Below, piece by piece: positions 17,315 to 33,308 of a stretch of 64,000 nt of DNA. Under the pieces are notes generated by a model, which was not told the origin of the DNA, did no database searches, and worked only from the letters and a program-made list of their open reading frames with translations. The DNA is taken from contig DASYZU010000020.1 in the NCBI GenBank assembly GCA_035945795.1, positions 7,199 through 71,198 of the forward strand, read 5' to 3'. Positions within the stretch are counted from its first letter, which is position 1; each line of letters starts with the position of its first letter. The position numbers were made by a program, and so were the translations under genes. This DNA is from Terracidiphilus sp. (GTDB taxonomy: Bacteria; Acidobacteriota; Terriglobia; Terriglobales; Acidobacteriaceae).

Positions 17315-17378
17315 CGAGCCCCTCCATGTGATACGGGTTTGAGTCATGCGAACGATGGTTCTCAAAGTGGAGCCGTAA

Positions 17379-19061
17379 CTACCACTTCAAATGCATCAAT
17401 GATGTGGCCTGCCGTGGCAGACTTGTGGCAATGGTTACCTTGCCGTTGCTTACATCAAGCCATTCAGGAGAGGTGAGAAGCTCAAGTTGCCCCGCTGCCT
17501 TGAGTTGCGCATATTGTTCGGCAGTCGGAGACTGCGGAGAGCCCATCTTCTGCCAAACGCTGTACGAATTGCTGTGTGATTGATCGATCCGGTAGTGCTC
17601 CAACAACACCTTCTTCACGCCGGCCGGAATTCCCGTAACCGTGACCTGCACATCCGCATCGGGAGCAGACATATCGTCGTCATGGTAGTTCCACAGCATG
17701 ACAGCAGCTTCGTGTGCCGCCTTCGTCGCGAAGGCGTCGACGTCCGGCGCCTGGCGCACACCTGCGCTCACAATGTCCTTGACCGGGACCTGGCCGGTAC
17801 TGTTCGTCGCCACGCGATCACCAGACATGAGGCCGGCCATGCGGAAGACGTTCAGAACGGGCTTGTCGATTCCGTTGGTTGCCAGCGTGCGGAATCCCTC
17901 AAAGTAGTCCTTGTTCTCAAATTCAAAGGACCACGAAAGCATCGAGATCAGGTTCACCTTGCTTGCGTCCTCCAGGTCGATCAGTGCCTTCATGGCCGTT
18001 GCCGTATACGAAGCATAAAGCGGCCCGTTCCGGTAGGCGTTTGCAGGATTCACCTTCATCGAACATCCCGCGCAACCCTCGGGATCTGCTTCACTCAGGA
18101 TGATCGGCACATGAATGAACTTCGGATATTTCGCGACAATTCGAAAACCGTTTTCAGCCGACTTCATTTCGTCGGAGAGACCCATGCGCACATGTCCATC
18201 GACAAGAATGGGCCAGCCCTTGGGATGGAACGAGATGAAGTCGAGCGGTACCGGCTTGCCGTCTGCCGCGCTCTTGTCGCTCTGGCAATGCTTCAGGAAG
18301 TCATTCAGAAAGGCGGATGCTTTTTCGTTTGCCGGTCCGGTGCTCGCCGGTCCGCCAACGATCGCGTTGGGCAGCGCGGCGCGGACTCCCGCAACAGCAT
18401 AGTCATAGAGCTTGAAGTACTCGGCCGGGGTTCCGTGCCAGTACATAATGTCCGGCTCGTTCCACACTTCGAAGTACCAGGTGCTCACCTGCTCCCGCCC
18501 GTAGCGCTCGACAAGGTGCTCAGTGTACTTGCGCACCAACTCGCCCCACATTTTGTAGTCCTTGGGCGGATTGTTGACCGATCCTCCCATGGTTGGCCTG
18601 GGATAGTGAAGCTGATACTCGGTGATTCCGGGGACCGTCGCAGCAAGATCCTTGGGCATAAAACCAAGTTCCACCATCGGCCGTACACCGGCGTTCTTGT
18701 ATGCGTCAAAGGTCTGGTCTGTGATGGTGAAGTCATAGACTGGCTTGCCATTCCGGTCGAGGCTGAAAACGTTGGACGAGCTCCACTTCAGCTCCGCAAC
18801 TCCGTTACCCGAAGTGAGAAGATGATGGGCGCGGATGTAGACCGGCACCGGGCTCAGGTCGTGCAACTCCACGAGCAGTTGCTTGCCATATTTCATTGTG
18901 GTGTAGTTTGATTCGTCATAGCCAAACCAGCTGTAGATCGGCTTGTAGACGCCCTGCGGCTTGTCAATATCTACCTGGATAGAGACAGGAGTAGAAGAAG
19001 GAATCTGTGCCGCCGCCTGGATCGCGGCGGCACAGATCAGAATCACAGCAAGCTTACGCAT
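17379..19061 (-). CDS. GH39 glycoside hydrolase (beta-xylosidase / alpha-L-iduronidase family)
   Basis: IRAHHLL, RPMVELGFMP, FEVWNEPD (acid/base), DFISFHPKG, IILSEADP (nucleophile). Signal peptide. Confidence 0.92.
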   Translation of the reverse strand: MRKLAVILICAAAIQAAAQIPSSTPVSIQVDIDKPQGVYKPIYSWFGYDESNYTTMKYGKQLLVELHDLSPVPVYIRAHHLLTSGNGVAELKWSSSNVFSLDRNGKPVYDFTITDQTFDAYKNAGVRPMVELGFMPKDLAATVPGITEYQLHYPRPTMGGSVNNPPKDYKMWGELVRKYTEHLVERYGREQVSTWYFEVWNEPDIMYWHGTPAEYFKLYDYAVAGVRAALPNAIVGGPASTGPANEKASAFLNDFLKHCQSDKSAADGKPVPLDFISFHPKGWPILVDGHVRMGLSDEMKSAENGFRIVAKYPKFIHVPIILSEADPEGCAGCSMKVNPANAYRNGPLYASYTATAMKALIDLEDASKVNLISMLSWSFEFENKDYFEGFRTLATNGIDKPVLNVFRMAGLMSGDRVATNSTGQVPVKDIVSAGVRQAPDVDAFATKAAHEAAVMLWNYHDDDMSAPDADVQVTVTGIPAGVKKVLLEHYRIDQSHSNSYSVWQKMGSPQSPTAEQYAQLKAAGQLELLTSPEWLDVSNGKVTIATSLPRQATSLMHLKW

Positions 19062-19080
19062 GGGTTATTGTCCCTTCCGG

Positions 19081-22000
19081 TTAAAAGTCGTACTTCAGCG
19101 CAAATTGGATATCGCGTGAAGGGACCGAGGTGGAAGTTATCGCGCAGCACGACGATGAAGTAACCGTGGCTCCGGGCGGGTTGAAGCTGGTGGTGTTTGA
19201 AATGTTGAAGAACTCCGCGCGGAAAGACAGCATCGACTCGCCTGGCAGATTGAAGTTCTTGAAGAACGAAGCATCGAACTGCCGGCGCATATCTCCCCGC
19301 AATGTATTTCCGCGCACCGTTCCGTAGGTATACTGCGGCGCCTGGACATAGCGAGTGGAGTCGAACCATTTCTTCAAGGACTTTTGGAAGGTTGTCGAAC
19401 CTCCGGCCGGACTCAGATTGGGACGCTGCCCTCCTACACCGGTATTGGCCACGTCGGAGCCCACCACAGGCGTGTACGGCGTTCCGCTGTGGAGCACGGT
19501 GATGGTTTGCACCTGCCAACCGCCCAGCACTGCATTGGCGACACCGTTGGTTTTAGCCATAAACTGCCTGCCCCGGCCAACTGGAATCATATAGGTTCCA
19601 CTGAAGGCCAGGTTCTGTGGAATGTCGAACGGAGAGTAGGTATGCTCGTAGCCCAGATTTCCTCCCACTTGCGGTGTTTGGCCAAATTGCAGGTACTTTG
19701 ACCATGTATAAGAGACGAGCGCCGATAATCCATTTCCCATCCGATGCTGGAACTTCGATTGCAGGGATTCATACGTGGAGCCCTGATCCTGCGACTCCCA
19801 TGAAATCGGTCCCCAAGGCTGATAAGGCCGTCGCCCCTGGATGGCGCCTGGGCCAGGCGTCGGATCGTTGGCATCGTCTCCGGACTGTAGATGGAGGCCG
19901 TGATTTGCCACATACGCGACTTCAAAGAGAGTTTTGGAAGAAAGCTCGCGCTCCACCGCAAGGCTGTAATGGTCGTCCTCGCCCGCCTGCAGATGAGTAC
20001 GGGTTGGGTTGATTGAAGGGTTCGCTAGCGCCGAGCCAAGCAGCGAGCCATTGAAAAAGTTGGCGAGGGTGCGATTGGGAACGACATTTTGTGTCTGGTT
20101 AACTGTCTCCGCCAACAGGAACGGCAGAATATTTGCGTTGACGCGACCGTCGGTTCCCTCCGGTTCGTAGTACATGCCGAAACCGCCGCGAATCACCGTC
20201 TTGTTGCCAAAGGGCCGCCAGGCAAAACCTATACGCGGGGCAAACTGAAGTTTATCGGTGTAAGTCAGGTTGTAGGGCAGGCCGGCATCGGAGGTGGTCT
20301 GGACATATTGCCCGAAGAACTTCATGGCGTTAGGAGCTGCATACTGGGACGAAGTATTTACCGAACTGGTGTGGCTCGCCACGATGATTGGCTTTGTCTG
20401 CGTGGGGTCAAACGTGCCGAGTTGCCCCAGGTAGCCTTCCATCCAGGGGGAATATTCGTAGCGCAGGCCAATATTGACGGTTAGCCTGCCACTCACCTGT
20501 ATGTCGTCCTGAGCGAAGAACTCCTTGTACCATGCCTGTCCGCCAAAGTTGGCTTTAGGATAGGCACGCGATACGGCGGCGGGATAACCGAGCAGAAAAT
20601 CAGCGAAGGCGTCACCGCCCTTGGTGCTGCCGCCTGGGTTCTGGGTTTCAGCGCCGGTGAAGGTGAAGCTCCCGGCATAGTTCGCGCTGTCGTAGCCAAG
20701 CCACTGGAAGTAGCGGATGAGGACACCAAACTTCAACGACTGGCGACCTTTGAGGATAGTGAAGGTATCAGTCGGCTCAAGAGCTCGACGATCCTGCGAC
20801 TTGGGACGTTGATCGAACGTGGACCCTTGCATGGCTGCGTAGCCGCTAAACGAATAGTCGGGGAATGAGCTTCCTGTGTCGGGTCGCGTCAGCCCGGTGA
20901 ACCCTAGAATACCGTTTGCGGCGTTGAAGTCCGGTCCTTCAAGGAATGCGGCAAGCCGCACATGGCTAGGCAGGCCGTGTATGCGGAAGTCCTGCACTTT
21001 GTTGTTTCCGATATTCGTAATCAGCCCAATAGCAATGTCCTGGCCATTTGAAGTGAGCGCTGCTGTCTTCAACAGAGGCGCAAAATTCGGGTCGGTTTCG
21101 CGATTATTGACATACGCCCAACGCCCAAAGAGATGGTTACGGGAATTGATCTGATGGTCGATGCGAATCGTGAATTGGTCCCAGTCAATGGCCTGCGACG
21201 GCACCGCCTCAAACCTCGTAGCGCTGGCATTCCCGGCTGGATAGTAAGCGAGAATGGCCTTGGCCTGTGCCGAAATGAGTCCGGGGCAGATTACATTCAG
21301 AGCTCCGTTGCAACTGATCTGGTTGCGCGTCGTTACTCCTCCGACCGTAGTTGTTGACTGCGGATCGTAGATTGGATTCAATCCCGCCGCGCTGAAATCG
21401 CCTATTCGCTGGGCACGGGTCGGCACAGTTCCGCTTTCGACCAGCCCTTGCCGGAGTCGCTGTGCTTCGTAATCCACGAAGAAGAATGTTCTGTCCTTGC
21501 CGCTGTACAAATGCCCAATTGTGAGCGGGCCGCCGATATCGCCGCCAAACTGGTTGCGCTTCAAAATGCCTCGGCTCAGCGAGAAGTAGTTGCGGGCATC
21601 CAGTTTCTCGTTGCGGATAAACTCGAACACGCCGCCGTGAATACTGTTCGTGCCCGACTTGGTGGTTGCGTTGAAGCCGGGACCTCCACGGTTGTACTCG
21701 GCGGAATAAGCATTCTGCTGTACGCTAAACTCCTGCAAAGCATCGATCGACGTCTGGATAAACGTTCCCCCCTGATGCTGCTCGCTGACGTCGACGCCGT
21801 CCAGGAGGAACGAGGTGGCGCGTCCGTGAACGCCGCTGATCGTGTTGCCGTTCACGATCTCCGGACGGATCGGCAGGGAGTTGCCGGTAGCCGGCAGCAG
21901 GGCGGCGCCTGGCGTGAGTTCCGCCAACTGGTAGAAACCACGTCCATTCAAGGGTAGGTCAGTGAGTTGCTGATTCGAGACAACAGTACCGATGGTGGCC

Positions 22001-22407
22001 GAATCGGTGGACAGCAGCGGCGATGAGCTGGTGACTTCGATGGTGGTGGTGGTGGCGCCGACCTTCAAGGCAATATCCATGCGAGCGATCTGGCCCACAT
22101 GCACCTCGATATTGCTGGTGGTGGACGTCTGGAAGCCGGGCGCATTAATGCTCAGCTTGTAGACTCCGGCGGCCACCGGGGTGATGACGTAGTCGCCCGT
22201 GGAGTTTGATACGGCTGTCTGAACGATGTTTGTGCCGACGTTCGTGGCCTTGACAGTGGCCTGCGGCACGACTGCTCCCTGCGCATCGGTAACGCGGCCC
22301 ACAAGTCGTCCTGTTTCAACCTGACCGTAGGCGGATAGCGCCGCCACCACGAACAGCCCCAGCGTCACGGCCTTCTGGATTTCCCCAGCAAATTTGAACT
22401 TCCTCAT
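19081..22407 (-). CDS. TonB-dependent receptor, Oar type, with N-terminal carboxypeptidase-regulatory-like domain
   Basis: GRVTDAQGAVVPQATV, DLPLNGR, NATTKSGTNSIHGGVFEFIRN, RNQFGG, FAPRIGFAW, C-terminal RDIQFALKYDF. AGGAGG RBS before ATG 22407; an in-frame upstream ATG exists at 22521. Confidence 0.95.
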   Translation of the reverse strand: MRKFKFAGEIQKAVTLGLFVVAALSAYGQVETGRLVGRVTDAQGAVVPQATVKATNVGTNIVQTAVSNSTGDYVITPVAAGVYKLSINAPGFQTSTTSNIEVHVGQIARMDIALKVGATTTTIEVTSSSPLLSTDSATIGTVVSNQQLTDLPLNGRGFYQLAELTPGAALLPATGNSLPIRPEIVNGNTISGVHGRATSFLLDGVDVSEQHQGGTFIQTSIDALQEFSVQQNAYSAEYNRGGPGFNATTKSGTNSIHGGVFEFIRNEKLDARNYFSLSRGILKRNQFGGDIGGPLTIGHLYSGKDRTFFFVDYEAQRLRQGLVESGTVPTRAQRIGDFSAAGLNPIYDPQSTTTVGGVTTRNQISCNGALNVICPGLISAQAKAILAYYPAGNASATRFEAVPSQAIDWDQFTIRIDHQINSRNHLFGRWAYVNNRETDPNFAPLLKTAALTSNGQDIAIGLITNIGNNKVQDFRIHGLPSHVRLAAFLEGPDFNAANGILGFTGLTRPDTGSSFPDYSFSGYAAMQGSTFDQRPKSQDRRALEPTDTFTILKGRQSLKFGVLIRYFQWLGYDSANYAGSFTFTGAETQNPGGSTKGGDAFADFLLGYPAAVSRAYPKANFGGQAWYKEFFAQDDIQVSGRLTVNIGLRYEYSPWMEGYLGQLGTFDPTQTKPIIVASHTSSVNTSSQYAAPNAMKFFGQYVQTTSDAGLPYNLTYTDKLQFAPRIGFAWRPFGNKTVIRGGFGMYYEPEGTDGRVNANILPFLLAETVNQTQNVVPNRTLANFFNGSLLGSALANPSINPTRTHLQAGEDDHYSLAVERELSSKTLFEVAYVANHGLHLQSGDDANDPTPGPGAIQGRRPYQPWGPISWESQDQGSTYESLQSKFQHRMGNGLSALVSYTWSKYLQFGQTPQVGGNLGYEHTYSPFDIPQNLAFSGTYMIPVGRGRQFMAKTNGVANAVLGGWQVQTITVLHSGTPYTPVVGSDVANTGVGGQRPNLSPAGGSTTFQKSLKKWFDSTRYVQAPQYTYGTVRGNTLRGDMRRQFDASFFKNFNLPGESMLSFRAEFFNISNTTSFNPPGATVTSSSCCAITSTSVPSRDIQFALKYDF

Positions 22408-22769
22408 TCCGCACCTCCTGTTTTTGGTGAATCGTCTGAGTTTCCTTCTCGTTCTTTCTTTGCACCCGGCATTCTGCGGATTCTGCTGACCTGGCCGGCC
22501 TAAGAAGAAACCTGGTGTCATGTCAACCTCCCTGGCAGATACCTCAACATTTTTGAGAGCTCTGTTTTGAGGAGAGGGGCCTTAGTAAACCTTTTCTGGA
22601 ATTTCACTCAACCATTCTTCTCCTTTTTCGCTGCGGAACATGGCCGGCCCACAGCAGCTGATTTGAGTTATCCATGGGGAGGACGGAGCGGTTAGCTCTG
22701 CACCTCCCGGTTGCGGGATATTCCGGCGGGGCAACTTGCGTAATGCGTTTATTTGCCGATCTGTCATAC

Positions 22770-23005
22770 TCACTCCGCCGCCGGGGATTTTGAGACGGAT
22801 AAAAACGGAAAAGCCTTGTCTTTTCCAGGAGCCTTCGGTGCCATCTCCTCGATAAAAGTCACAATCGCTGAGTGATCCAAATCGCGCTGCCGCGATTCAT
22901 CAGCGCGATCAGCATCTGCTGCATAATACTGGTCATGGGCAGCACAACCTTCTTCGATATGGGCTTTCCCATAATTCCGAGTCCAATGAATCCTATTTTT
23001 GACAC
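22770..23005 (-). pseudogene. Internally deleted, frameshifted remnant of a GarR/GlxR-like beta-hydroxyacid dehydrogenase
   Basis: AAGGAG RBS plus GTG 23005 give MSKIGFIGLGIMGKPISK (Rossmann GxGxxG start), fused directly to VVLPMTSIMQQMLIALMNRG. A shifted frame then gives DLDHSAIVTFIEEMA, the GarR-type C-terminus. Confidence 0.85.
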
Positions 23006-23037
23006 TTGCTTCTCCTTATCCATTCAGCGCTGCGCTG

Positions 23038-23817
23038 TCAGCGCGTCGCAGCGCTGAACCAACCCAGACCGTCAGTGGTTTTGCCTTCCGGGCGATACTC
23101 GCAGCCAAGCCATCCTTGATAGCCGATCTCATCGAGCACACGGTAAAGATACTCATAGCGAACTTCGCCTGTATCCGGCTCGTGACGCTCGGGGCACCCA
23201 GCAATCTGAATGTGGCCGCACTCGGATGAGTAGCGCTTGAGGCTGGTGGCCAGATCTCCCTCCATCACCTGCATGTGATAGAGATCCATCTGCATCTTCA
23301 GGTTGTGCGCGCCGACAGCTTCGCAGATCGCGTGAGAGTCTTTTTGGGTAGAAACAATAAAGCCAGGCATGTCCCGCGTGTTGATTGCTTCCAGAAGCAG
23401 CGTGATGTTCTTCGCAGCGAGCTTTTCCGCCGCGTACCTCAGATTCGCGATGAGCGTGGCGCGGCAGGCGGCAGTGTCCGCTCCAGCCGGAGCGATGCCG
23501 GCCATGGCATGAAGCCTGGGCGTTCCGAGATGTTCTGCATAGAGGAGAGCCTTATCCACGCCCTCGCGGAATTCCTGTTCGCGCCCAGGAAGTCCGGTGA
23601 TGCCGCGCTCGCCCGCGCCCCAGTTGCCGGCCGGCATATTGAACAGGACAACCTGAGTGCCGGCAGCCTTGGCCTTGGCCGCTACTTCTTCAGGCGAGTA
23701 TTCGTACGGAAAGAGAAACTCCACCGCATTAAATCCTGCCGCTGCTGCCGCTTTGAAACGGTCGAGGAAAGGCACCTCATTGAACATCATTGATAGGTTT
23801 GCTGCAAATCGAGGCAT
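23038..23817 (-). CDS. hyi: Hydroxypyruvate isomerase family, most like 2-oxo-tetronate isomerase OtnI/YgbM
   Basis: MPRFAANLSMMF, AVEFLFPY, GERGITGLPGRE, EAINTRDMPG, DLYHMQVMEGD, HIQIAG.PERHEP, GYQGWLGCEY. hyi versus otnI cannot be resolved by eye. Confidence 0.92.
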   Translation of the reverse strand: MPRFAANLSMMFNEVPFLDRFKAAAAAGFNAVEFLFPYEYSPEEVAAKAKAAGTQVVLFNMPAGNWGAGERGITGLPGREQEFREGVDKALLYAEHLGTPRLHAMAGIAPAGADTAACRATLIANLRYAAEKLAAKNITLLLEAINTRDMPGFIVSTQKDSHAICEAVGAHNLKMQMDLYHMQVMEGDLATSLKRYSSECGHIQIAGCPERHEPDTGEVRYEYLYRVLDEIGYQGWLGCEYRPEGKTTDGLGWFSAATR

Positions 23818-25103
23818 TCTACTTCCTCTCCCTTCTTTGTGAAGTGCGCCATAATGTCAGCGCCCTGAGTAACTACTCCGATGCGCGCCTTGCTGCCGTA
23901 CTTCTTGAGAGCTGCCGCCAGAGCTTCGTTAAAATCGGTTGTGGACGTGATTCCGATCTTGCGCGCCTCGACGTCCGAAACCCCGTCCGACACAAGCGCG
24001 ACATTGATACGTTTCCGTGTCTGGTCGAAGGCAAGATATGTTGCCGCGGCGACTTCGTCCTCTACCTTTCCTTCGTTCACCAACGCCATTACCTGGTCGC
24101 CGGGCGTGGTGCCGAAGTCGACAAGCTGTGTGTGATCCGGCGCAATGCCTTCCGGCGCGGGAATCATGAGGATGAGCGTCCCTCCATCCTTGACCAGCAT
24201 TCCGCAGTTGTTCACCGGCTTGAAGCCTTGCCACAGATCGCGATCGGCAGGATGCGAGCTGGCGACGACGATGTCCGCCTTCTCTTCGAGTTCAATGGTG
24301 TAGATGGGACGCGCAATATCAACGCCTGCGCGATGCGCCTTCACCACGTCGCCTGCCACGATGCACGCGACCGCGCCCGCGGCATCGAGCACAACATTCA
24401 CAATGAACTTGAGGCCGGACTGGATGGCGATGGCCTCCATCTCCTTGCGGACCTCGTTGTCCACGTTGCCCAGAATCTCGTACACGCGCGGGCCGGCAAT
24501 CAGATGCGTTCTTCCCGTGGTGACGGCGCTGGTAACGCCGGGCTGCACCATCTTGGCTCCGCCTGCATAGCCCGCATACATGTGGGGGATGATGTTGCCG
24601 ATCGCAATCGTGATGGGACTCTCAAGATAACGGCGGCTCACATGGATCGGAATTCCGAGCGGCGTCACGCCCAGATCGACAAAGTCCTTGGGATCGTGAG
24701 AAAGGTTGGTTACCGGAATGCGATGCAGAACAGCTTCGCTCACGCGCTCGGCGATTTCCTTATGCTCCATTCTGCGATGAGTTCCGAGGGCAATCATTGC
24801 CGATATCTCGCTGTCGGGAACTCCGGCCGCGTTCAACTCATCGAGGAGAATGGGCAGAATGAGTTTTTGCGGAGTGCTGCGCGTACTGTCATCCACCAGC
24901 AGCAGCGTGCGTTTGCCGTGACGGGCAACCAACTCTGCAAGCGTCGGGGAGCCGATGGGATTCCGGATTGCGTGGCGTACCGCTGCTTCGATGTCTGGAA
25001 TCGGAGGCGCGTGGCGCGGCCCTTCGATCCATGCGAGATTCTCCTCGGGAATCTCGACGATCCGTTCTTCGTGCCCGTAGGGAAGTGTAACGCGCTTCAT
25101 CAT
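23787..25103 (-). CDS. LarA-superfamily nickel-pincer-dependent alpha-hydroxyacid racemase/epimerase
   Basis: LPYG start, LLVDDSTRSTP, IALGTHR, IIPHMYAGYAGGAKMVQPG, KFIVNVVLD, DIVVASSHPADRDLWQGFK, GGTLILMIPAPEG. Substrate unknown, so the larA symbol is not assigned. Confidence 0.9.
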   Translation of the reverse strand: MMKRVTLPYGHEERIVEIPEENLAWIEGPRHAPPIPDIEAAVRHAIRNPIGSPTLAELVARHGKRTLLLVDDSTRSTPQKLILPILLDELNAAGVPDSEISAMIALGTHRRMEHKEIAERVSEAVLHRIPVTNLSHDPKDFVDLGVTPLGIPIHVSRRYLESPITIAIGNIIPHMYAGYAGGAKMVQPGVTSAVTTGRTHLIAGPRVYEILGNVDNEVRKEMEAIAIQSGLKFIVNVVLDAAGAVACIVAGDVVKAHRAGVDIARPIYTIELEEKADIVVASSHPADRDLWQGFKPVNNCGMLVKDGGTLILMIPAPEGIAPDHTQLVDFGTTPGDQVMALVNEGKVEDEVAAATYLAFDQTRKRINVALVSDGVSDVEARKIGITSTTDFNEALAAALKKYGSKARIGVVTQGADIMAHFTKKGEEVECLDLQQTYQ

Positions 25104-26101
25104 TTGAAGACCTCACTGGTTTCATGGGCTGCGGTTGCCTGTTTACGCGCAATGGCGCGCTGCGCGGCGGCCACGACCGCCTCCACGCTCATGCCGTACT
25201 TCTTGAGCAGATCGGAGTACGGCCCCGATTCAGTAAAGGTGTCATTCACGCCGACGCGCTCGAGCGGAACAGGCGAGAACTGCGACATACACTCGGCCAC
25301 TGCTCCGCCCAAGCCACCGATAATGGAATGCTCTTCGGCCGTAATAATCGCGCCGGTCTCTTCTGCGCAGCGCACGACCAGGTCGGTGTCCAGAGGCTTG
25401 ATGGTGTGCATCTCGACGACGCGGAGACGGATTCCCTCATTTGCGAGCTGCCGTGCCGCCTCGATGGAGCGAGCAACCATCACGCCGCAGGCAATCACCG
25501 TAGCGTCTTCGCCGTCCATCAGCGTGATTCCTTTTCCGATCACCGGCTCGTAGGCATCGGTGAAGATCTCCGGCAGTTCATTTCGGCAGAGCCGGAAGTA
25601 GACCGGCCCGTTCCACGCAACGATCTGCGGCAGCAGTTTCTTGACCGCGAGTGAATCAGCAGGGACAACGACCGTCATCCTGGGAAGACTGCGCATGATC
25701 GCGAGATCGGACACAGTCTGGTGCGTCGGACCATCGAACGAGTCCGAGAGCCCCGCATAGGCCCCCGCCAGCTTGACGTTGGCACCGCCATAGCAGAGAT
25801 GCGTGCGCACCATCTCCAATGCGCGCGTAGCGAACAAGAAGGCGAATGTATTGGCGATGGGAATCTTGCCGCTATTGGCCAGGCCAACTGCTACATCGAC
25901 AAGCGCCGGCTCAGCAATACCTACATTGATGAAGCGCTTGGGATAGGCGGCTTCAAACATGTAGCTGAAATCGGAACTCTGCACATCCGCGCTGAGCACA
26001 ACAACATCGTTGCGCTGAGCACCCATCTGCACCAGTGCTTCCCCGTAGGCCTTCCGAACCGGCGTGGGGCTGCCGAAAGGATTTCGAATTACGCTCTCCA
26101 T
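25100..26101 (-). CDS. Transketolase, C-terminal (pyrimidine-binding plus C-terminal) subunit
   Basis: RKAYGEAL, VVLSADV, RFINVGIAE, FAFLFATRALEMVR, DGPTHQ, GPVYFRL, TIKPLD, AEEHSIIGGLG. ATGA overlap with the LarA gene. Confidence 0.93.
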   Translation of the reverse strand: MESVIRNPFGSPTPVRKAYGEALVQMGAQRNDVVVLSADVQSSDFSYMFEAAYPKRFINVGIAEPALVDVAVGLANSGKIPIANTFAFLFATRALEMVRTHLCYGGANVKLAGAYAGLSDSFDGPTHQTVSDLAIMRSLPRMTVVVPADSLAVKKLLPQIVAWNGPVYFRLCRNELPEIFTDAYEPVIGKGITLMDGEDATVIACGVMVARSIEAARQLANEGIRLRVVEMHTIKPLDTDLVVRCAEETGAIITAEEHSIIGGLGGAVAECMSQFSPVPLERVGVNDTFTESGPYSDLLKKYGMSVEAVVAAAQRAIARKQATAAHETSEVFK

Positions 26102-26991
26102 TCGCTTATCCTTTCTTCCAACTCAGCCAGTGCAATCTGGAACTGTTTGTCGTCCGGAATGCCCCCGTGCCAGGCGGGCTGATTCTCCATGAAGCTCACG
26201 CCTTTACCCTTGGTGGTGCGGGCAATAATGACCACCGGACGACCGTGAATTTCGTTTGCACGATCCAGCGCATTCAGAATCTCTGCTACGTTGTGGCCGT
26301 GAATCTCGATGACATGCCAGTTGAACGAAGCCCACTTGTCGGCGATGGGTTCCGTGGGCATCACGTGGTGCGTGGTTCCCGTTTGCTGCACGCCGTTGTA
26401 GTCCACAATGGCTGTCAGGTTATCGAGGCCGAACTTGGCGCCAACCATCAGGCCTTCCCATATGACACCGCTGTTCAATTCGCCATCGCCCAGGATGGCG
26501 TAGATGTTGCGGTTGGACCCGTCCATGCGCGCAGACAACGCCATACCAGACGCGATGGCCACGCCATGTCCCAGCGGTCCCGCAGCCACTTCCACGCCCG
26601 GCGTCTTCTGCGGTTCAGGGTGGCCCTGCAGGTGGCTGTTCAGTGCGCGGAAGGTGGGCAGTTCCTCAACCGGAAAGAACCCGCGATGCGCAAGGCACGT
26701 GTAGAGCATGGCGCAGGCATGTCCCTTGGAAAAAACGAGGCGGTCTCGATCTTCCCATTTGGGATTCGTGGGATCGATCCTGAGCTGATGAAAGTAGAGG
26801 CAGGTGAGGATCTCCGCAATGGAGAACGCTCCGCCAATGTGTCCGGACTTGCGCCCGTAGACCATGCGCAGCACCTGGGCGCGGTACTCGTAAGCGCGAC
26901 GCGAGAGATCGGCAATCATCTCAGCCGTGTGCAGCGCGCCATACGGATAGACGCGGGCCGGCGTTGCCTGATCGGTTAAAGACGCGATCAT
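26089..26991 (-). CDS. Transketolase, N-terminal ThDP-binding subunit
   Basis: SGHIGG, RDRLVFSKGHA, LQGHP, GPLGHG, ThDP motif GDGE...IVDYN, TTKGKGVSFMEN...WHG. Confidence 0.93.
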   Translation of the reverse strand: MIASLTDQATPARVYPYGALHTAEMIADLSRRAYEYRAQVLRMVYGRKSGHIGGAFSIAEILTCLYFHQLRIDPTNPKWEDRDRLVFSKGHACAMLYTCLAHRGFFPVEELPTFRALNSHLQGHPEPQKTPGVEVAAGPLGHGVAIASGMALSARMDGSNRNIYAILGDGELNSGVIWEGLMVGAKFGLDNLTAIVDYNGVQQTGTTHHVMPTEPIADKWASFNWHVIEIHGHNVAEILNALDRANEIHGRPVVIIARTTKGKGVSFMENQPAWHGGIPDDKQFQIALAELEERISEWRA

Positions 26992-27683
26992 GCGTGTACC
27001 TCCGTCGCGACGTTGCCATAGAGTGTGCGGCGAATGCAGTCAAAGCCAGTGGTGCCGCTGTTGTAGACGGGCACTGCGGTCTTACCCAGGAAGGGCTCCA
27101 GCGCAGACATGGAGAGCTGCGCGAGCACGATGGAATCGACTTTGCCGGAGAGTTTGTCGATTTCCTCGAGCAAAATGTTGTTGTGCGTATCCTTGTCGCC
27201 CTTCTGAATGGCCGCAAAGGCCTCGGGGCGCATCACGGTTGTGATATCCACCGGCAATCCCTTTTCAGCCGCCACAATGCGCAGCAAACGTTCAGACGAG
27301 GGCACGGTGGTGGCCAGCGTCGCCAGCAGTCCTACGCGGCGGCCTTGTGCAACAGCAAGCTCCATCATGGGGCGATCGATCTGCATGATCGGAATATCGA
27401 TCATGGGGCGCGCCAGCTCAGCCGCATAGTTGAAGGTAGAGCAAGCCAGAAGAATCAGTTCAACGCCAGACTCCTGCAGGTTGTGTGCGTATTGCGCGAA
27501 CTTGAAGTAGTTGTTCTTCGGAATCACGCCGACGCCGGCGGCGATATTATCGCGCTGAATCGTGTCGTCGCAGAGGTGCATTACGTCGACGTCGGGAATA
27601 TAGCGCTCAAGAAATGGCTGCATGGCGCGAATGGTGAGATGAACCGCATGAATGATGCCGATAGTCTTTGTTTGCTTTTCCAT
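26988..27683 (-). CDS. Asp/Glu/hydantoin racemase-fold protein, single-cysteine variant
   Basis: ILLACST (first catalytic Cys), PIMQIDRPM, RVGLLAT..TT. The second catalytic position reads IVLAQLSM rather than GCT. Confidence 0.85.
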   Translation of the reverse strand: MEKQTKTIGIIHAVHLTIRAMQPFLERYIPDVDVMHLCDDTIQRDNIAAGVGVIPKNNYFKFAQYAHNLQESGVELILLACSTFNYAAELARPMIDIPIMQIDRPMMELAVAQGRRVGLLATLATTVPSSERLLRIVAAEKGLPVDITTVMRPEAFAAIQKGDKDTHNNILLEEIDKLSGKVDSIVLAQLSMSALEPFLGKTAVPVYNSGTTGFDCIRRTLYGNVATEVHA

Positions 27684-27711
27684 ATTCTTGTCTCCTATGT
27701 GTTATTAAGTT

Positions 27712-28989
27712 TCATGCTGCGACGAAACGGGCCGCCTTTGGCTTGAAATCAATTGGGCCAACGACGCGAATCGTCAGCAGGATGACGCAGAACCCTATCA
27801 GGTGCAGAACGCCGACACACGCGAATACGGGTCCGTAGCCAAATCCGTGATCGAGCAGCAATCCGACGACAAGGCCAAAAACAATGCCGCCCATTGCGCC
27901 GCCAAAGCCAACCAGTCCGGCAAACGAACCCACCACGCTGGAGGGAACAAGGTCAGAGGGCAAAGTCATCACCAGCGTGGACCACGATTGCTGACCGGCA
28001 AAGGCGATGCTGAAAAGAACAATCACCAGTTCTACGGGAGAGTGCATTACCAGAAGAATTGAAGGCATTACACCGGCGCTGACGCCGAGCGCAATCTTGC
28101 GCGACATGTTGAGCGAGAAGCCGCGCTGGATCAGCCGGCTCGAGAACCAACCTCCCAGCAGGCTCCCCACGCCAGCGGCGGCGTAGGGAATCCAGGCGAA
28201 ATAGCCTACTCGCTTGGTATCGAAATGGTGCACGTCATACAGATATTTGGGCAGCCAGAAGATGTAGAAGTACCAGGCAGCATCGCTGAGGAACTTGGCG
28301 AAGACCAGGCCGGAAACCTGCGGATAACGGAAGAGATCGATCCAGCGAATCTTCGCGTCACTCTTCACCTTGGGCGCGAGCACTTCGGCAAGCTCCTGCC
28401 TTTCGCCCGCACTCAGGCGCGGATGCGACGCGGCAGGCTGGTAGTCGCGGATCCACCAGATAGTCCACACCAGGCCGACTGCGCCGGCCAGAAAGAAGAC
28501 CCATCGCCAGCTCAGGTGCGCCAGCGTGAGGGCAATCAAGGGTGGAGCAGCAACGGCGCCAACAGCAGTGCCGGCGTTCATCATGCCCATGGCGGTGGAG
28601 CGCTCGTGTGCGGGAAACCACTCGGCCATGGCCTTGGTCGCGGCCGGAAACCCTCCACCCTCGCCCATACCCAGCAGAAACAGGCAAACAGCCAGCATCG
28701 GGACACTGGTAGCCAGCCCCTGGCTTGCACAAGCCAGCGACCACCACAGCATGATAAGCAGAAAGCCCTTGCGCGTCCCCAGAACATCAATCAGCTTTCC
28801 GCTGCCGGCGTACATCAGCGCATAGGCGGCCAGGAACGCCGCCTGCAGATGAGAGAACTGCGTATTCGTGACGGGAATCTCCCGCTGGATGGCCCGAATC
28901 GCTATAGGAAGCGTCTGCCGGTCGAAATAGCTGATCGCTATTGCGGCCGTGATCAGCAAGGCCATCTTCCAACGCAGTACTTTATTCAT
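27712..28989 (-). CDS. MFS transporter, ExuT/anion:cation symporter-like sugar-acid importer
   Basis: AISYFDRQTL, GKLIDVLGTRKG, GEGGGFPAATKAMAEWFP..ERS, WRWVF, YFYIFWLPKYL. Confidence 0.92.
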   Translation of the reverse strand: MNKVLRWKMALLITAAIAISYFDRQTLPIAIRAIQREIPVTNTQFSHLQAAFLAAYALMYAGSGKLIDVLGTRKGFLLIMLWWSLACASQGLATSVPMLAVCLFLLGMGEGGGFPAATKAMAEWFPAHERSTAMGMMNAGTAVGAVAAPPLIALTLAHLSWRWVFFLAGAVGLVWTIWWIRDYQPAASHPRLSAGERQELAEVLAPKVKSDAKIRWIDLFRYPQVSGLVFAKFLSDAAWYFYIFWLPKYLYDVHHFDTKRVGYFAWIPYAAAGVGSLLGGWFSSRLIQRGFSLNMSRKIALGVSAGVMPSILLVMHSPVELVIVLFSIAFAGQQSWSTLVMTLPSDLVPSSVVGSFAGLVGFGGAMGGIVFGLVVGLLLDHGFGYGPVFACVGVLHLIGFCVILLTIRVVGPIDFKPKAARFVAA

Positions 28990-29170
28990 GGCGCCGACTC
29001 GTGTAAAACAGATTGTTGACCCTTAAAGAACGGGTGTGGGAAGCGAGACAGACACCACAATGCCCAACGACACAAAAAAGACTGCGACGGTCACGAAGTC
29101 GAGCAATCTAAGTCCGATTGTCTGAGACCTGAGGCTTCCCAGTTGCCAGGAACGCTGGGCTTGCCTATAA

Positions 29171-29217
29171 ACATCAGACAGCCTGATGTGCTGATGTTCT
29201 AGCCAGCGAACTATAAT
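29171..29217. promoter_or_regulatory. Candidate FadR-family operator and -10 box in the divergent MFS/regulator promoter
   Basis: ACATCAG-acagc-CTGATGT inverted repeat (29171-29189), a second CTGATGT at 29191-29197, and TATAAT at 29212-29217. Confidence 0.6.
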
Positions 29218-29232
29218 CAAGGCAGGGTAACC

Positions 29233-29964
29233 ATGTCAATGCTAAAACCGGTTTCCAGAGTCACATTAGGAGAGCAGGTTGCGGCCCAGCTCTCCGATCA
29301 GATCGCCGAGGGCAGGTGGAAGCCTGGCGAAAAGCTGCCTTCCGAGGCAGAGCTTTGCTTTGCTTTGAATATCGGGCGGTCTACGCTGCGCGAGGCGTTG
29401 AAGTCGCTGGCATTCGTGGGCATGGTGCAGATGCGGCCGGGCGAGGGAACCTATGTTATTGAAGGGTCAGTACTTTTGATCGAACGCATCATGGCGAAGG
29501 GGCTCCTAAAGACCGATAAGGAACTCCAGGACGTTGGCGAGGCCCGCCTCCTGATTGAGGGTGAAACCGCGGCTCTGGCTGCGGAGCGAGCAGACACGAA
29601 CGATCTGCAGCAACTGGACTCGCTGATGGAGGAAATGACGCAGAGCCTGAACGGCGTCGGTCGCGATTTTGTCGATTTGGACGTGGAATTTCACCTCACC
29701 ATCGCCCAATGCGCCAAGAACCAGATGCTGTTCGAACTCCTGACCCCGATTCGCGGCGTCCTCAAGGAGTGGATCAGTAAGTCGCAGGAGTTGCCGGGAA
29801 TCAAAGAAAACGCACACGGGCAGCACGCCAAGATCCTTGCCGCCGTGCGCAGCCGGGAGCCGGAAAAGGCAAGGCACGCCATGAGGACTCATTTGCAGAC
29901 CTGCGAAAAAATGTTCAGCCTGCTGGGTAGAATCTCAGTCAACAAAGAACACATTGAAGTTTGA
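29233..29964 (+). CDS. GntR/FadR-family transcriptional regulator (wHTH plus FCD)
   Basis: GEKLPSEAELCFALNIGRSTLREALKSL..VG...RPGEGTYV; FCD motif DVEFHLTIAQCAKN. Confidence 0.95.
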   Translation: MSMLKPVSRVTLGEQVAAQLSDQIAEGRWKPGEKLPSEAELCFALNIGRSTLREALKSLAFVGMVQMRPGEGTYVIEGSVLLIERIMAKGLLKTDKELQDVGEARLLIEGETAALAAERADTNDLQQLDSLMEEMTQSLNGVGRDFVDLDVEFHLTIAQCAKNQMLFELLTPIRGVLKEWISKSQELPGIKENAHGQHAKILAAVRSREPEKARHAMRTHLQTCEKMFSLLGRISVNKEHIEV

Positions 29965-30126
29965 CGGCGCACATCCGGCCAGCGCCGGAAAGCGCGGTGG
30001 GCTTTGTCGCTCGCGGAATAGGAAACTGAGGTCAGGGCACAGAAAGCAGAAGTGGGCCTAATTCGCTGGTTCCTACGAAACCGAAATTGATTACGGGCAT
30101 CTGTTAGCTGAGAACCAGTTTCACCG

Positions 30127-30202
30127 GCACCGGTGGCGAAGTGGCTAACGCGCAGGTCTGCAAAACCTGTATACGCGGGTTCGATCCCCGCCCGGTGCTC
30201 CA
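30127..30202 (+). tRNA. tRNA-Cys (GCA)
   Basis: Acceptor stem GCACCGG/CCGGTGC, anticodon arm CAGGT-CTGCAAA-ACCTG, T arm GCGGG-TTCGATC-CCCGC, discriminator T and encoded CCA. Confidence 0.97.
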
Positions 30203-30207
30203 AACTC

Positions 30208-30253
30208 AAAAGGCCGCGCCAATCCCTCGCGGGAGCGCGGCCTTTTTCCTTTT
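30208..30253. terminator. Intrinsic terminator after tRNA-Cys (probably bidirectional)
   Basis: AAAAGGCCGCGC...GCGCGGCCTTTT stem enclosing a TCCC-tcgc-GGGA mini-hairpin, followed by a T-tract. Confidence 0.85.
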
Positions 30254-30289
30254 GCATCTGACCCTACGGATTGCAGGCGCTGTATTCGA

Positions 30290-30769: not shown

Positions 30770-31741
30770 CTACCGCGCGGCCGCGATACCCAGCACCATC
30801 TGGGTTCCGGAATCGAGATGAATGTTCTTGTTTGCGCCCGAGAGCACACCCGATGCGGAGCTAGATGCCTCGCCATTCAACATCACTCCGGGAAATCCTG
30901 TCGCACGGGCGCCCAGGGAACCGGCACCGTAAGCCGCTCCACCCACCCCGCGTCCCAGGCTGCCGGTAGCGTCTCCGGTCGCGTTGGAGGTGGTGCGCAT
31001 AGCGCCGCCAGCCGTCGAGCCCAGGTCAGAACCAACCTGTCCCGTCGCCCTGGCCGCACCACCTGCGGTCGCTCCCAACAGGCCGCCACCGCCAACATGC
31101 CCGCCGCCGATTGCGCCGCCGCCCACTTGCCCGCCGCCACCAACCGGACCGCTCAAGGCTTCTTCGTCATTCATGGAAGTAGCTGCAACGGCGCTCGCAC
31201 TCGGCTCTATAGACTGAATCATCGAATGGATCGCAAAGCTCTGCCCACCCTTCAATTCCGCGCGGTCAAACTCAAGACCCATCCGAGACTCAGCGTGTCC
31301 CTTGCCATGCGCCTGAACCTCGGTAACGTGGCCTAGCAGCCGTGACCCCTTGGGGATTTCAGTTCCATCGGCAGTCCTCATCTTCTGCCTGGTCTTGAGC
31401 ACCACCGGATCGCCGGGCTTTGAGGACTTCGAGTCCAGCTTGCCTTCAAGCTCACCTTTCACGGGCCGCATCTCCATGGAGCCCTCACCAGCGCCGTATG
31501 CTGAGGCGTTCGCTCGGCCACTGTCATTTGCCGTCAACGAACTCTCTGCGCTGCCGCTGGTCTGAGCCTTGCCAGAACTAGCCTGCGCGCTCGCGCCCGC
31601 ATTCGCTGAATCATTAACCTGGGAGCCGGCAACAGACGCCGAAGCGTTCTGCTGTGCACTTGCATCTGCTTGTTGCGCCATCGTCAGGGGAAGGCTCGCA
31701 AAGGTGGCCATTGCCACCGCGAGTAACTTGGCAGATTTCAT
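30770..31741 (-). CDS. Exported Gly/Ala/Ser-rich hypothetical protein (TrbI/VirB10-like beta domain suspected)
   Basis: GGAGG RBS before ATG 31741, signal peptide, LDSKSSKPGDPVVLK...IPKGSRLLGHVTEV, C-terminal NIHLDSGTQMVL. Confidence 0.8.
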   Translation of the reverse strand: MKSAKLLAVAMATFASLPLTMAQQADASAQQNASASVAGSQVNDSANAGASAQASSGKAQTSGSAESSLTANDSGRANASAYGAGEGSMEMRPVKGELEGKLDSKSSKPGDPVVLKTRQKMRTADGTEIPKGSRLLGHVTEVQAHGKGHAESRMGLEFDRAELKGGQSFAIHSMIQSIEPSASAVAATSMNDEEALSGPVGGGGQVGGGAIGGGHVGGGGLLGATAGGAARATGQVGSDLGSTAGGAMRTTSNATGDATGSLGRGVGGAAYGAGSLGARATGFPGVMLNGEASSSASGVLSGANKNIHLDSGTQMVLGIAAAR

Positions 31742-33100: not shown

Positions 33101-33308
33101 ATAGACGGAAATGGTACTCCTAAGAGAGCATACTGGAACTCTTTCTGCGCTGACGGGCAACCAGCACGGCTCTGGCGCGTCTGATACTCTGACAGGTGCA
33201 GCCCTGCTGGCTGGCCAGGCCAGTGCGGATTGCGTCCGCCGGTCGTTCAACGGCAGGATGCGTCGGTCTGGGAGGACGAAAATACCTGTGAAGCTCAGTT
33301 CTACAGCA

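What the first reader, a model, noticed from the sequence alone, without database searches (positions are those of the whole stretch)
22770..29964. Candidate new pathway: kinase-free, transketolase-based catabolism of a C3/C4 sugar acid using a nickel-pincer epimerase
Seen: a FadR regulator divergent from MFS, single-Cys racemase, TK-N, TK-C, LarA-family enzyme, OtnI/Hyi and a garR-like remnant. Four successive junctions overlap (4, 13, 4 and 31 nt), and no kinase, aldolase or decarboxylase is present. Established: the tetronate route is dehydrogenase (LtnD/DenD), OtnI, kinase OtnK, decarboxylase OtnC. Split transketolases serve dedicated catabolic routes (AptAB for apiose, SqwGH for sulfoquinovose). 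Hydroxypyruvate is a transketolase donor. LarA homologs invert C2 of alpha-hydroxy acids. Inference: LarA equalises C2 epimers, the dehydrogenase oxidises, and OtnI/Hyi makes a terminal ketol (-CO-CH2OH). The transketolase then moves the C2 unit to glyceraldehyde 3-phosphate. That would give xylulose 5-phosphate plus glyoxylate from 3-oxo-tetronate, or plus CO2 from hydroxypyruvate. I know of no described pathway with this gene set.
Basis: partly seen in the sequence, partly recalled or inferred. Interest (0 to 1): 0.85.

Follow-up and report, generated by a model that had tools for sequence, protein, structure and literature searches.

The report
Transketolase sugar-acid operon with nickel epimerase
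A soil acidobacterium carries a tightly packed operon that joins an unusual transketolase to a nickel-cofactor epimerase, a sugar-acid isomerase and an acid transporter, with no kinase. Parts of this gene set recur across several phyla, which points to an undescribed way of breaking down plant-derived sugar acids, though no activity has been tested.

Summary
On the minus strand lie MFS(ACS)-Asp/Glu-racemase-like-TK-N-TK-C-LarA homolog-OtnI/Hyi-garR remnant. The overlaps are 4, 13, 4 and 31 nt, and a GntR/FCD gene lies divergent. There is a conserved promoter and operator, and a terminator-like site.

A LarA-anchored genome scan and a TK-anchored metagenome scan show recombining modules: [acid transporter], [Rac+LarA], [split TK], [OtnI+GarR]. 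Outside Acidobacteriota the set is TctABC + two TIM-barrel isomerases + TK + LarA + Fe-ADH. No OtnK, OtnC or aldolase was seen in any version. A glycerate-2-kinase-like or ROK gene appears in only a few.

The TK forms a distinct clade. The canonical phosphate-pocket His is Tyr ('AYxGLSDSFDGPTH'), while both pocket Arg are kept. The LarA clade keeps all catalytic and NPN-binding residues but fits no characterised subgroup.

- The dehydrogenase is GarR-type, not LtnD-type. It is deleted here and optional elsewhere.
- TK and LarA each occur without the other in about half or more of the loci.
- An IolO-like epimerase and pectin/hemicellulose hydrolases point to C6 keto-uronates at least as much as to C3/C4 acids.

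Best model (about 0.4): a carboxylate analogue of the sulfo-TK pathway. No enzyme activity has been tested.

The parts
29233..29964 (+). GntR/FadR-subfamily (FCD) transcription regulator, divergent from the operon
   Evidence: Pfam GntR + FCD. Conserved at this position in Acidobacteriaceae loci.
29210..29239 (-). Sigma-70-like promoter of the operon (TTGACA-18-TATAGT)
   Evidence: 11 of 12 matches. TGACA and TATA are invariant in 8 aligned loci.
29170..29198 (.). Candidate operator: inverted repeat AACATCAG-N13-CTGATGTT, just downstream of the -10 hexamer
   Evidence: 'TGTCTGATGTT' is invariant in 8 loci, while the rest of the spacer diverges.
27712..28989 (-). MFS transporter of the anion:cation symporter type (D-galactonate/glucarate/tartrate-like)
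   Evidence: Pfam MFS_1; TIGR00893 242.8 bits, below its cutoff.
26988..27683 (-). Asp/Glu/hydantoin-racemase-fold protein with one catalytic Cys (Cys81); function unknown, proposed isomerase/epimerase
   Evidence: PF01177. Alignment to MurI. Family conservation. AF2 model pLDDT 84.7 with only generic racemase fold matches.
26089..26991 (-). Split transketolase, N-terminal (ThDP-binding) subunit
   Evidence: PF00456, 186 bits. The GDG...N motif and catalytic His are read in the sequence.
25100..26101 (-). Split transketolase, C-terminal (Pyr + C) subunit. Non-canonical pocket: Tyr115 replaces the phosphate-binding His, and SDSF replaces VGE/IGE. Arg16 and Arg173 are kept.
23787..25103 (-). LarA homolog (nickel-pincer-nucleotide 2-hydroxyacid racemase/epimerase superfamily), uncharacterised clade
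   Evidence: Lar_N + LarA_C. Below all NCBIfam subgroup cutoffs. D72, R75, H109, H174, K184, H200, Q292 and K295 are conserved.
23038..23817 (-). 2-oxo-tetronate isomerase / hydroxypyruvate isomerase family TIM barrel (OtnI/Hyi)
   Evidence: NF043033, 391.5 against cutoff 325; TIGR03234, 351.4 against cutoff 353.45. 275 bits to E. coli YgbM, PDB 1K77.
22833..23023 (-). Remnant of a GarR/GlxR-type 2-hydroxy-3-oxopropionate reductase gene: 699-bp internal deletion plus a frameshift
   Evidence: The intact orthologue in relatives scores 421 against cutoff 397 on NF008592.
22806..22827 (-). Terminator-like hairpin followed by a T-run, after the remnant
   Evidence: The number of such sites in the region equals the shuffle expectation, so this is weak evidence.
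15173..22521 (-). Conserved downstream neighbours: TonB-dependent-type outer-membrane barrel (19081-22521), GH39 (17379-19061), GH3 (15173-17365)
   Evidence: Pfam. The same trio follows the operon in many Acidobacteriaceae loci.

Best explanation
The operon takes up a sugar acid, probably derived from plant cell walls, and degrades it without phosphorylating it. Under control of the FCD repressor and the conserved operator, the MFS symporter imports the acid. Three isomerase/epimerase-type enzymes then produce a carboxylated ketose that carries a terminal ketol (HOCH2-CO-) and the 3S configuration that transketolases require. These enzymes are the single-Cys racemase-fold protein, the NPN-dependent LarA homolog that inverts the alpha-hydroxy carbon next to the carboxylate, and OtnI/Hyi. 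The dedicated split transketolase removes the C2 ketol unit and transfers it to glyceraldehyde 3-phosphate, giving xylulose 5-phosphate and a shorter aldehyde-acid.

The favoured version mirrors the sulfo-TK pathway. A C6 keto-uronate or 5-keto-aldonate is cut to a tetruronate. OtnI/Hyi isomerises this to 3-oxo-tetronate. LarA sets its C2 configuration. The transketolase cuts again to glyoxylate. Where present, the GarR-type reductase (or Fe-ADH in other phyla) deals with the terminal aldehyde-acid.

Shown: the gene content, its conservation, the intact catalytic residues and the altered TK pocket. Inferred: every substrate and the order of the steps.
For: 1. Translationally coupled genes sit under one conserved promoter and operator.

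2. The modules recur. Sixteen of 32 LarA-ortholog loci have the TK adjacent, in Acidobacteriota, Chloroflexota, Sumerlaeota, KSB1 and Planctomycetota. Of 27 well-flanked TK-anchored loci, 18 have OtnI, 18 an MFS gene and 11 GarR.

3. Each architecture pairs the TK with about three isomerase/epimerase genes and an optional reductase.
- A: Rac, LarA, OtnI, with or without GarR.
- B: an IolO-like epimerase (280 bits, cutoff 300), RpiB, OtnI and GarR.
- C: two AP_endonuc_2 barrels, LarA and Fe-ADH.

4. The TK pocket is altered and the change is invariant. Tyr replaces human His416 and the C. hydrogenoformans His, and SDSF replaces GE, in all 20 LarA-linked TKs. Both pocket Arg are kept, as expected if G3P is still the acceptor. 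The nearest other representative is 58% identical. Of 150 nearest representatives, 87 have His.

5. All partners are enzymes, transporters or regulators of non-phosphorylated carboxylates.

6. No sugar kinase was found in the window or in most loci.

7. The sulfo-TK pathway uses the same logic and the same families: TK, PF02502 isomerase and PF00465 reductase (PMC9594981).

8. GarR is lost here while the rest of the operon stays intact. This fits a route that needs no dehydrogenase.

From my own knowledge: transketolases accept hydroxypyruvate, and Gluconobacter transketolase is reported to cleave 5-keto-D-gluconate to tartaric semialdehyde.
Against: - No activity, ligand or expression data exist; no RNA runs were found.
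- About half of the LarA loci lack the TK, and two thirds of the TK loci lack LarA.
- Both phosphate-pocket Arg are retained, and a bona fide RpiB (177.6 bits, cutoff 138.65) sits in architecture B. Both facts are compatible with ordinary phosphosugar chemistry.
- Tyr at the pocket position is not unique to this clade; 36 of 150 related representatives have it.
- Glycerate-2-kinase-like and ROK genes occur in a few loci.
- NPN biosynthesis genes larB, larC and larE are not in the window.
- The chain length of the substrate is undetermined.
Confidence: 0.4

Rival explanations
1. A C4 tetronate (L-threonate or D-erythronate) or C3 glycerate is oxidised by the beta-hydroxyacid dehydrogenase. OtnI/Hyi isomerises the product to 3-oxo-tetronate or hydroxypyruvate. 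The transketolase cleaves this once, to glyoxylate or CO2, and LarA equalises the C2 epimers of the starting acid.
For: The minimal recurrent architecture MFS-TK-OtnI-GarR uses exactly these three enzymes. OtnI passes the 2-oxo-tetronate isomerase cutoff. OtnK and OtnC are absent everywhere examined. All known C4 routes need them (PMC12994016).
Against: The dehydrogenase is GarR-type (421 against 397), not LtnD-type (159 against 350). It is a pseudogene in this window and absent in close relatives whose operon is otherwise intact, so the entry step would be missing. Architecture C has no OtnI or GarR. The IolO-like epimerase and the GH context suggest longer substrates.
Confidence: 0.15
2. The transketolase is a conventional phosphosugar enzyme. 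It could be a pentose-phosphate-pathway paralogue or an AptAB-like apulose-4-phosphate transketolase. It would be co-expressed with sugar-acid and hemicellulose genes to absorb pentose phosphates, and the needed kinases would be encoded elsewhere.
For: Both phosphate-binding Arg and all catalytic residues are kept. RpiB is adjacent in architecture B. Neighbouring GH39, GH3, GH51, GH127 and GH31 enzymes release pentoses. Apiosidase-like GH140 genes lie next to TK or LarA in L103, L036, L037 and L031. A ROK kinase-like gene occurs in 3 loci.
Against: The TK is translationally coupled between a racemase-fold gene and LarA, under an acid-responsive regulator type. No pentose isomerase or kinase is in the operon. 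The pocket His-to-Tyr and GE-to-SF changes are invariant across phyla. The apiosidase link is sporadic.
Confidence: 0.25
3. The operon fuses two independent modules. Rac + LarA (+MFS) would be a stereo-inversion unit for a hydroxy-(di)carboxylate such as tartrate or another small 2-hydroxy acid. TK + OtnI/Hyi + GarR would be a separate glyoxylate/hydroxypyruvate/tartronate-semialdehyde unit. The two would not share an intermediate.
For: MFS-Rac-LarA occurs alone in Solibacter- and Bryobacter-type loci, and MFS-TK-OtnI-GarR occurs alone elsewhere. Characterised LarA homologs include tartrate and malate epimerases (PMC11770544). Arg363 and Arg365 near the specificity positions are conserved, which could bind a second carboxylate. 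Hyi + GlxR is the classic glyoxylate module (my own knowledge).
Against: The TK genes are inserted exactly between Rac and LarA, with overlapping stop and start codons, in at least 10 genomes. In four other phyla the TK is again directly upstream of the LarA orthologue, without Rac, OtnI or GarR.
Confidence: 0.15

Closest known systems
Sulfo-TK sulfoquinovose pathway (SqvD, SqwGH, SqwI, SqwF)
   Same: A dedicated two-subunit transketolase removes C2 units from a non-phosphorylated anionic ketose onto G3P. The aldehyde product is re-isomerised to a ketose and cut again. There is a terminal aldehyde reductase and no kinase. Families PF02502 and PF00465 also appear in architectures B and C here.
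   Different: Here the transporter, regulator and partner enzymes are for carboxylates, not sulfonates. There is no sulfoquinovosidase (GH31 appears in only two loci) and no sulfonate exporter. A LarA epimerase and an OtnI/Hyi isomerase are present. Sequence relatedness to SqwGH could not be tested.
Four-step tetronate pathway (LtnD/DenD, OtnI, OtnK, OtnC)
   Same: An OtnI-family isomerase above the NCBIfam cutoff, next to a beta-hydroxyacid-dehydrogenase-family gene and an acid transporter.
   Different: There is no DUF1537 kinase and no class-II-aldolase-type decarboxylase. The dehydrogenase is GarR-type. A transketolase stands where the kinase and decarboxylase would be.
LarA superfamily enzymes with known substrates (LarA, Mar, GntE, Hgr, LarAH10)
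   Same: Same two domains. The catalytic pair H109/H174, Lys184 for NPN attachment, His200 and Arg75 are all conserved.
   Different: About 35% identity or less to solved members. Below every NCBIfam subgroup cutoff (best 292 against 500). The specificity positions are M175, Y176, A354 and T355, against F-F-W-T in L. plantarum LarA1, E-V-A-H in GntE, and H/Q-K at the last two positions in Mar (PMC11770544). The small Ala at the Trp358 position is shared only with GntE.
AptAB apulose-4-phosphate transketolase (D-apiose catabolism)
   Same: A split transketolase dedicated to a plant-cell-wall sugar. Apiosidase-like (GH140-type) genes occur next to some TK or LarA loci.
   Different: From my own knowledge, the AptAB route needs an apulose kinase and an ABC sugar transporter. 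Neither is present here.
gcl-hyi-glxR glyoxylate module and garPLRK of E. coli
   Same: A Hyi-like isomerase followed by a GlxR/GarR-type reductase. An ACS-type MFS transporter. A glycerate-2-kinase-like gene in three related loci.
   Different: No glyoxylate carboligase, dehydratase or GarL aldolase. The reductase is deleted in this window.

Membership tests
LarA superfamily (NPN-dependent 2-hydroxyacid racemases/epimerases) | Lar_N and LarA_C domains | tested here: met
   PF09861 165.5 bits, PF21113 29 bits.
LarA superfamily (NPN-dependent 2-hydroxyacid racemases/epimerases) | Two catalytic His (LarA1 His108/His174); NPN-binding Lys184, His200, Arg75 | tested here: met
   H109, H174, K184, H200 and R75 are invariant in 17 homologs and in orthologues down to 48% identity.
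LarA superfamily (NPN-dependent 2-hydroxyacid racemases/epimerases) | NPN biosynthesis genes larB/larC/larE in the genome | not testable with these tools
   None among the scanned window ORFs. The rest of the genome is not available.
Characterised LarA subgroups (LAR, MAR, GntE, HGR, HHR/LarAH10) | Score above the NCBIfam equivalog cutoff, or the subgroup signature at LarA1 positions 175/176/358/359 | tested here: not met
   Best scores are 292 against 500 (MAR LarAH6), 259 against 540 and 244 against 460. The signature M-Y-A-T matches none.
Transketolase (split type) | Transketolase_N, Transket_pyr and Transketolase_C domains on two adjacent genes; ThDP/Mg motif | tested here: met
   306 bits to the C. 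hydrogenoformans split TK C-chain. GDGELNSG...DYNG is read in the sequence.
Transketolase (split type) | Canonical phosphate pocket (human Arg318, Ser345, His416, Arg474) | tested here: not met
   Both Arg are kept and a Ser is present in the Ser345 region (exact equivalent not mapped), but His416 is Tyr115 and the adjacent GE is SF. This is invariant in the clade. The roles of the human residues are from my own knowledge.
AptAB / SqwGH dedicated transketolases | Sequence orthology to the characterised enzymes | not testable with these tools
   No reference sequences or family models were available. NCBIfam returned only generic TK and DXS models.
OtnI (2-oxo-tetronate isomerase) | Score above the NF043033 cutoff | tested here: met
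   391.5 against 325. Hyi TIGR03234 scores 351.4 against 353.45, so Hyi cannot be excluded.
Four-step tetronate pathway | LtnD/DenD-type 2-dehydrogenase | tested here: not met
   The intact orthologue scores 159.5 against 350 on ThreonDh, but 421 against 397 on 2-hydroxy-3-oxopropionate reductase. It is a pseudogene in the window.
Four-step tetronate pathway | OtnK (DUF1537 kinase) and OtnC decarboxylase adjacent | tested here: not met
   Not among the conserved neighbour clusters of 135 related loci, nor among the annotated neighbours.
Sulfo-TK pathway | Sulfoquinovosidase, SQ isomerase, sulfonate exporter | tested here: not met
   GH31 appears only in L011 and L016. No exporter was found. 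LarA chemistry requires a 2-hydroxy-carboxylate.
Asp/Glu/hydantoin racemase superfamily | Fold, and two catalytic Cys | tested here: inconclusive
   The fold is confirmed (PF01177; Foldseek probability 1.0, TM 0.6-0.7). Only the first Cys is present, so two-base racemase chemistry is unlikely.
GntR/FadR-subfamily regulator | N-terminal GntR wHTH and C-terminal FCD domain | tested here: met
   PF00392 74 bits, PF07729 95.6 bits.

The most novel reading that the evidence does not exclude
A previously undescribed, kinase-free 'carboxy-TK' route exists in abundant soil and peat Acidobacteriota and in several other phyla. A specialised transketolase cuts C2 units off carboxylated ketoses (keto-uronates or 5-keto-aldonates, then 3-oxo-tetronate). 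A nickel-pincer LarA epimerase, or a ketose-3-epimerase-type TIM barrel in LarA-less variants, sets the stereocentre that transketolase demands. This would be the first physiological partnership of an NPN enzyme with a ThDP enzyme.
Probability: 0.3. Interest if true: 0.85.

Novelty: new variant of a known kind. Interest (0 to 1): 0.66.

Why it matters
If the model holds, it adds a third anionic-sugar transketolase pathway, after apiose and sulfoquinovose. It would give a physiological role to a large, uncharacterised LarA clade: 1376 database clusters at E<=1e-20, with the 120 best-scoring listed all at least 69% identical. It would also show how dominant soil and peat Acidobacteriota could feed sugar-acid carbon into the pentose phosphate pathway without spending ATP or losing CO2. 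The known tetronate routes cost one ATP and one CO2.

Separately, it defines testable markers: the 'AYxGLSDSFDGPTH' transketolase signature and the 'PHMYAGW...VAAATY' LarA signature. These could improve annotation, since the genes are currently labelled 'transketolase' and 'lactate racemase'.

Tried and rejected
- Literature searches for LarA or nickel-pincer with transketolase, for oxo-tetronate with transketolase, and for split transketolase catabolism found nothing relevant. The gene-context supplements of the 2020 LarA paper contain no transketolase or related COGs.
- The D-apiose paper (Carter 2018) is not held, so AptAB details rest on memory.
- Apiose as the common substrate was rejected. 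Apiosidase-like genes are present in only about four loci, and their homologues are not shared across loci.
- Sulfoquinovose as the substrate was rejected. LarA needs a 2-hydroxy-carboxylate, and the transporters and regulators are of carboxylate type.
- Rac as an arylmalonate-decarboxylase-like decarboxylase is not supported. From my own knowledge AMDase keeps the C-terminal Cys, whereas this family keeps the N-terminal one. The Foldseek match to AMDase is no better than to the racemases.
- The structure model of Rac gave only generic fold matches.
- Tyr115 as a unique marker was rejected. Thirty-six of 150 related representatives also have Tyr, with other neighbouring residues. Only the full motif is clade-specific.
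- No RNA-seq runs contain the locus.
- The terminator and promoter scans are at background frequency. Only the promoter and operator are supported by cross-locus conservation.

Full report
**Observation.** The window carries a seven-gene minus-strand unit:
- MFS transporter of the anion:cation-symporter type, 27712-28989.
- A 231-aa Asp/Glu-racemase-fold protein, 26988-27683.
- Split transketolase: TK-N 26089-26991 and TK-C 25100-26101.
- A 438-aa LarA homolog, 23787-25103.
- An OtnI/Hyi TIM barrel, 23038-23817.
- A garR remnant.

A GntR/FCD regulator gene, 29233-29964, is transcribed divergently. The overlaps of 4, 13, 4 and 31 nt follow from the coordinates and were read at the junctions.

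The racemase-fold protein keeps only the first catalytic Cys (Cys81). The second position is Gln in an invariant 'AQLSMS'.

The remnant is the first ~65 nt and the last ~127 nt of a garR gene that is intact in relative L002. That is a 699-bp deletion plus a frameshift. In the closest relative (L006, 96% LarA identity) it is eroded further.

A sigma-70-like promoter (29239-29210) is followed by an inverted repeat, AACATCAG-N13-CTGATGTT (29170-29198). Both are conserved in eight loci whose spacers otherwise diverge.

**Source organism.** The closest contigs are Terracidiphilus/Acidobacteriaceae MAGs, and the locus is held by soil and peat metagenome runs.

**Are the proteins functional?**
- The LarA homolog keeps the catalytic His pair (H109, H174), the Lys that carries the nickel-pincer nucleotide (K184), and H200, R75, Q292 and K295. 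These are invariant down to 48% identity.
- It is below every NCBIfam subgroup cutoff (best 292 against 500) and at most about 35% identical to solved LarA homologs.
- At the four positions that the LarA literature uses to predict specificity it has M-Y-A-T. This matches no assigned group. The small Ala at the Trp358 position is shared only with gluconate 2-epimerases (PMC11770544; alignment).
- The transketolase has the ThDP motif and catalytic histidines.
- OtnI passes the 2-oxo-tetronate isomerase cutoff and misses the hydroxypyruvate isomerase cutoff by 2 bits.

**Conservation, anchored on LarA.** A genome scan with a LarA alignment gave 55 loci. Thirty-two of them are orthologues (at least 48% identity) with usable flanks.
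- Ten have MFS-Rac-TK-LarA-OtnI. Six of these also have an intact GarR.
- Four have MFS-Rac-LarA-OtnI without TK.
- Five have only MFS-Rac-LarA.
- Five loci from Chloroflexota, Sumerlaeota, KSB1 and Planctomycetota have the TK directly next to the LarA orthologue. Four of them also carry two AP_endonuc_2 TIM barrels, three an Fe-ADH and three TctA. A second FCD regulator also occurs in this set.

The intact dehydrogenase is a GarR/GlxR-type 2-hydroxy-3-oxopropionate reductase (421 against 397), not an L-threonate dehydrogenase (159 against 350).

**Conservation, anchored on the transketolase.** A metagenome scan with a TK-C alignment gave 80 loci. Twenty-seven have at least 3 kb on both sides. 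Among these, OtnI is near the TK in 18, an MFS gene in 18, GarR in 11, and LarA and Rac in 9 each.

The commonest architecture is MFS-TK-OtnI-GarR without LarA. It is often preceded by three genes:
- An AP_endonuc_2 protein whose best model is 5-keto-L-gluconate epimerase IolO (280 bits, cutoff 300).
- A bona fide RpiB.
- In three loci, a glycerate-2-kinase-like gene.

Other TK loci are flanked by GH28 genes, a GH127-like gene, a lactonase or an apiosidase-like GH140-type gene.

No OtnK, OtnC or aldolase appeared in any conserved neighbour cluster. A ROK kinase-like gene occurs in three loci. The window itself has no sugar kinase and no larBCE among the ORFs scanned.

**The transketolase is not a generic one.** In alignments to the C. 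hydrogenoformans split TK and to human TKT, the phosphate-pocket His (human His416) is Tyr115. The following 'VGE/IGE' is 'DSF'. Arg16 and Arg173, the equivalents of human Arg318 and Arg474, are kept (the roles of the human residues are from my own knowledge).

'AY(A/G/S)GLSDSFDGPTH' is invariant in all 20 LarA-linked TKs from five phyla. Those loci were collected without reference to this motif.

An exhaustive search of 1.8 billion cluster representatives finds the nearest full-length outsider at 58% identity. His is the majority state (87 of 150). Tyr occurs in 36, with different neighbouring residues. This is therefore one of several non-canonical split-TK clades. Tyr alone is not diagnostic.

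**Mechanistic reading.** Every architecture combines the TK with an acid transporter, an acid-type regulator, about three isomerase/epimerase genes and an optional reductase. That is the logic of the sulfo-TK pathway:
- An isomerase makes the ketose.
- SqwGH moves C2 to G3P.
- A PF02502 isomerase re-makes a ketose.
- SqwGH cuts again.
- A PF00465 reductase finishes the sequence (PMC9594981).

By analogy I propose a carboxylate version:
- A keto-uronate or 5-keto-aldonate is cut to a tetruronate.
- OtnI/Hyi converts the tetruronate to 3-oxo-tetronate.
- A second cut gives glyoxylate.

Fischer-projection bookkeeping (inference) shows that after the first cut of D-fructuronate the remaining alpha-hydroxy carbon has the wrong configuration for a second transketolase reaction. 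The carbon derived from 5-keto-D-gluconate has the right one. A C2 epimerase of the acid end, which is exactly LarA chemistry and parallels the known gluconate/mannonate 2-epimerases, would resolve this.

In LarA-less architecture B, a ketose-3-epimerase-type barrel (IolO-like) could act on the same carbon by enolisation. This would explain why LarA and that barrel alternate.

The loss of GarR here with the rest of the operon intact fits a route that needs no redox step.

The dehydrogenase-first entry and the C3/C4 limitation are not supported.

**Rivals.**
- The TK may be an ordinary phosphosugar enzyme, with kinases encoded elsewhere. The retained Arg, RpiB, the pentose-releasing GHs and the sporadic apiosidase-like genes all fit this.
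- The operon may fuse two unrelated modules, since each occurs alone.

None can be excluded without biochemistry. No expression data exist.

**Novelty.** The searches found no description of a LarA-transketolase association or of a transketolase route for tetronates or uronates. A February 2026 paper still lists only kinase-plus-decarboxylase routes for C4 acids (PMC12994016).

I rate this a new variant of known kinds: a dedicated anionic-sugar transketolase pathway, and the LarA superfamily. It has a well-defined, widespread but biochemically untested gene set.

Noticed in passing
window 30127-30202 (+): tRNA-Cys (GCA) lies just downstream of the FCD regulator gene. The 122-aa ORF at 29889-30257 (-) overlaps it and is probably not a gene.
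   Followed up: partly
window 48382-50899 (+): Adjacent EgtB-like (DinB_2 + FGE-sulfatase) and EgtD-like (Methyltransf_33) genes, which is the ergothioneine biosynthesis pair.
   Followed up: no
window 56426-62343 (-): RND efflux system: outer-membrane factor (OEP), HlyD-type adaptor and AcrB-type pump.
   Followed up: no
window 39849-43088 (-) and 51688-52926 (-): A second CarboxypepD_reg + OMP_b-brl_4 outer-membrane barrel and a GH27 alpha-galactosidase. These are further carbohydrate-uptake genes outside the operon.
   Followed up: no
L023 12693-13964 and L093 12867-14126: In non-acidobacterial-type loci a second LarA paralogue lies two genes downstream of the studied LarA orthologue, after the Fe-ADH gene. 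The L023 copy passes the true lactate-racemase cutoff (528 against 460).
   Followed up: partly
L080 11364-12644 and L105 11508-12833: In TK loci that lack LarA, a 426-aa protein with weak DUF362 and Lar_N hits (E about 1e-3) sits next to a LacI-type regulator. It could be a very distant Lar_N-fold protein.
   Followed up: no
L011 and L012 (two contigs of the same MAG): One MAG carries two copies of the Rac-LarA pair. One has the full FadR-MFS-Rac-LarA-OtnI-cupin context. The other is flanked by GH31 genes.
   Followed up: no
L002, L007, L008, L009, L012, L067, L068 (downstream of OtnI or GarR): A roughly 180-aa cupin (Cupin_2), with no NCBIfam match, recurs at the end of the operon. It sometimes stands in place of GarR.
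   Followed up: no
Representatives P0243-P0250 and others: Several other split-transketolase clades also carry Tyr at the phosphate-pocket His position, with different adjacent motifs (SDFKD, SDSYD, SDALD). This suggests a wider radiation of specialised transketolases.
   Followed up: partly
window 30770-34631: A 410-aa ORF with no Pfam match, followed by two overlapping ORFs on opposite strands with weak VWA hits. It is not clear which strand is coding.
   Followed up: no
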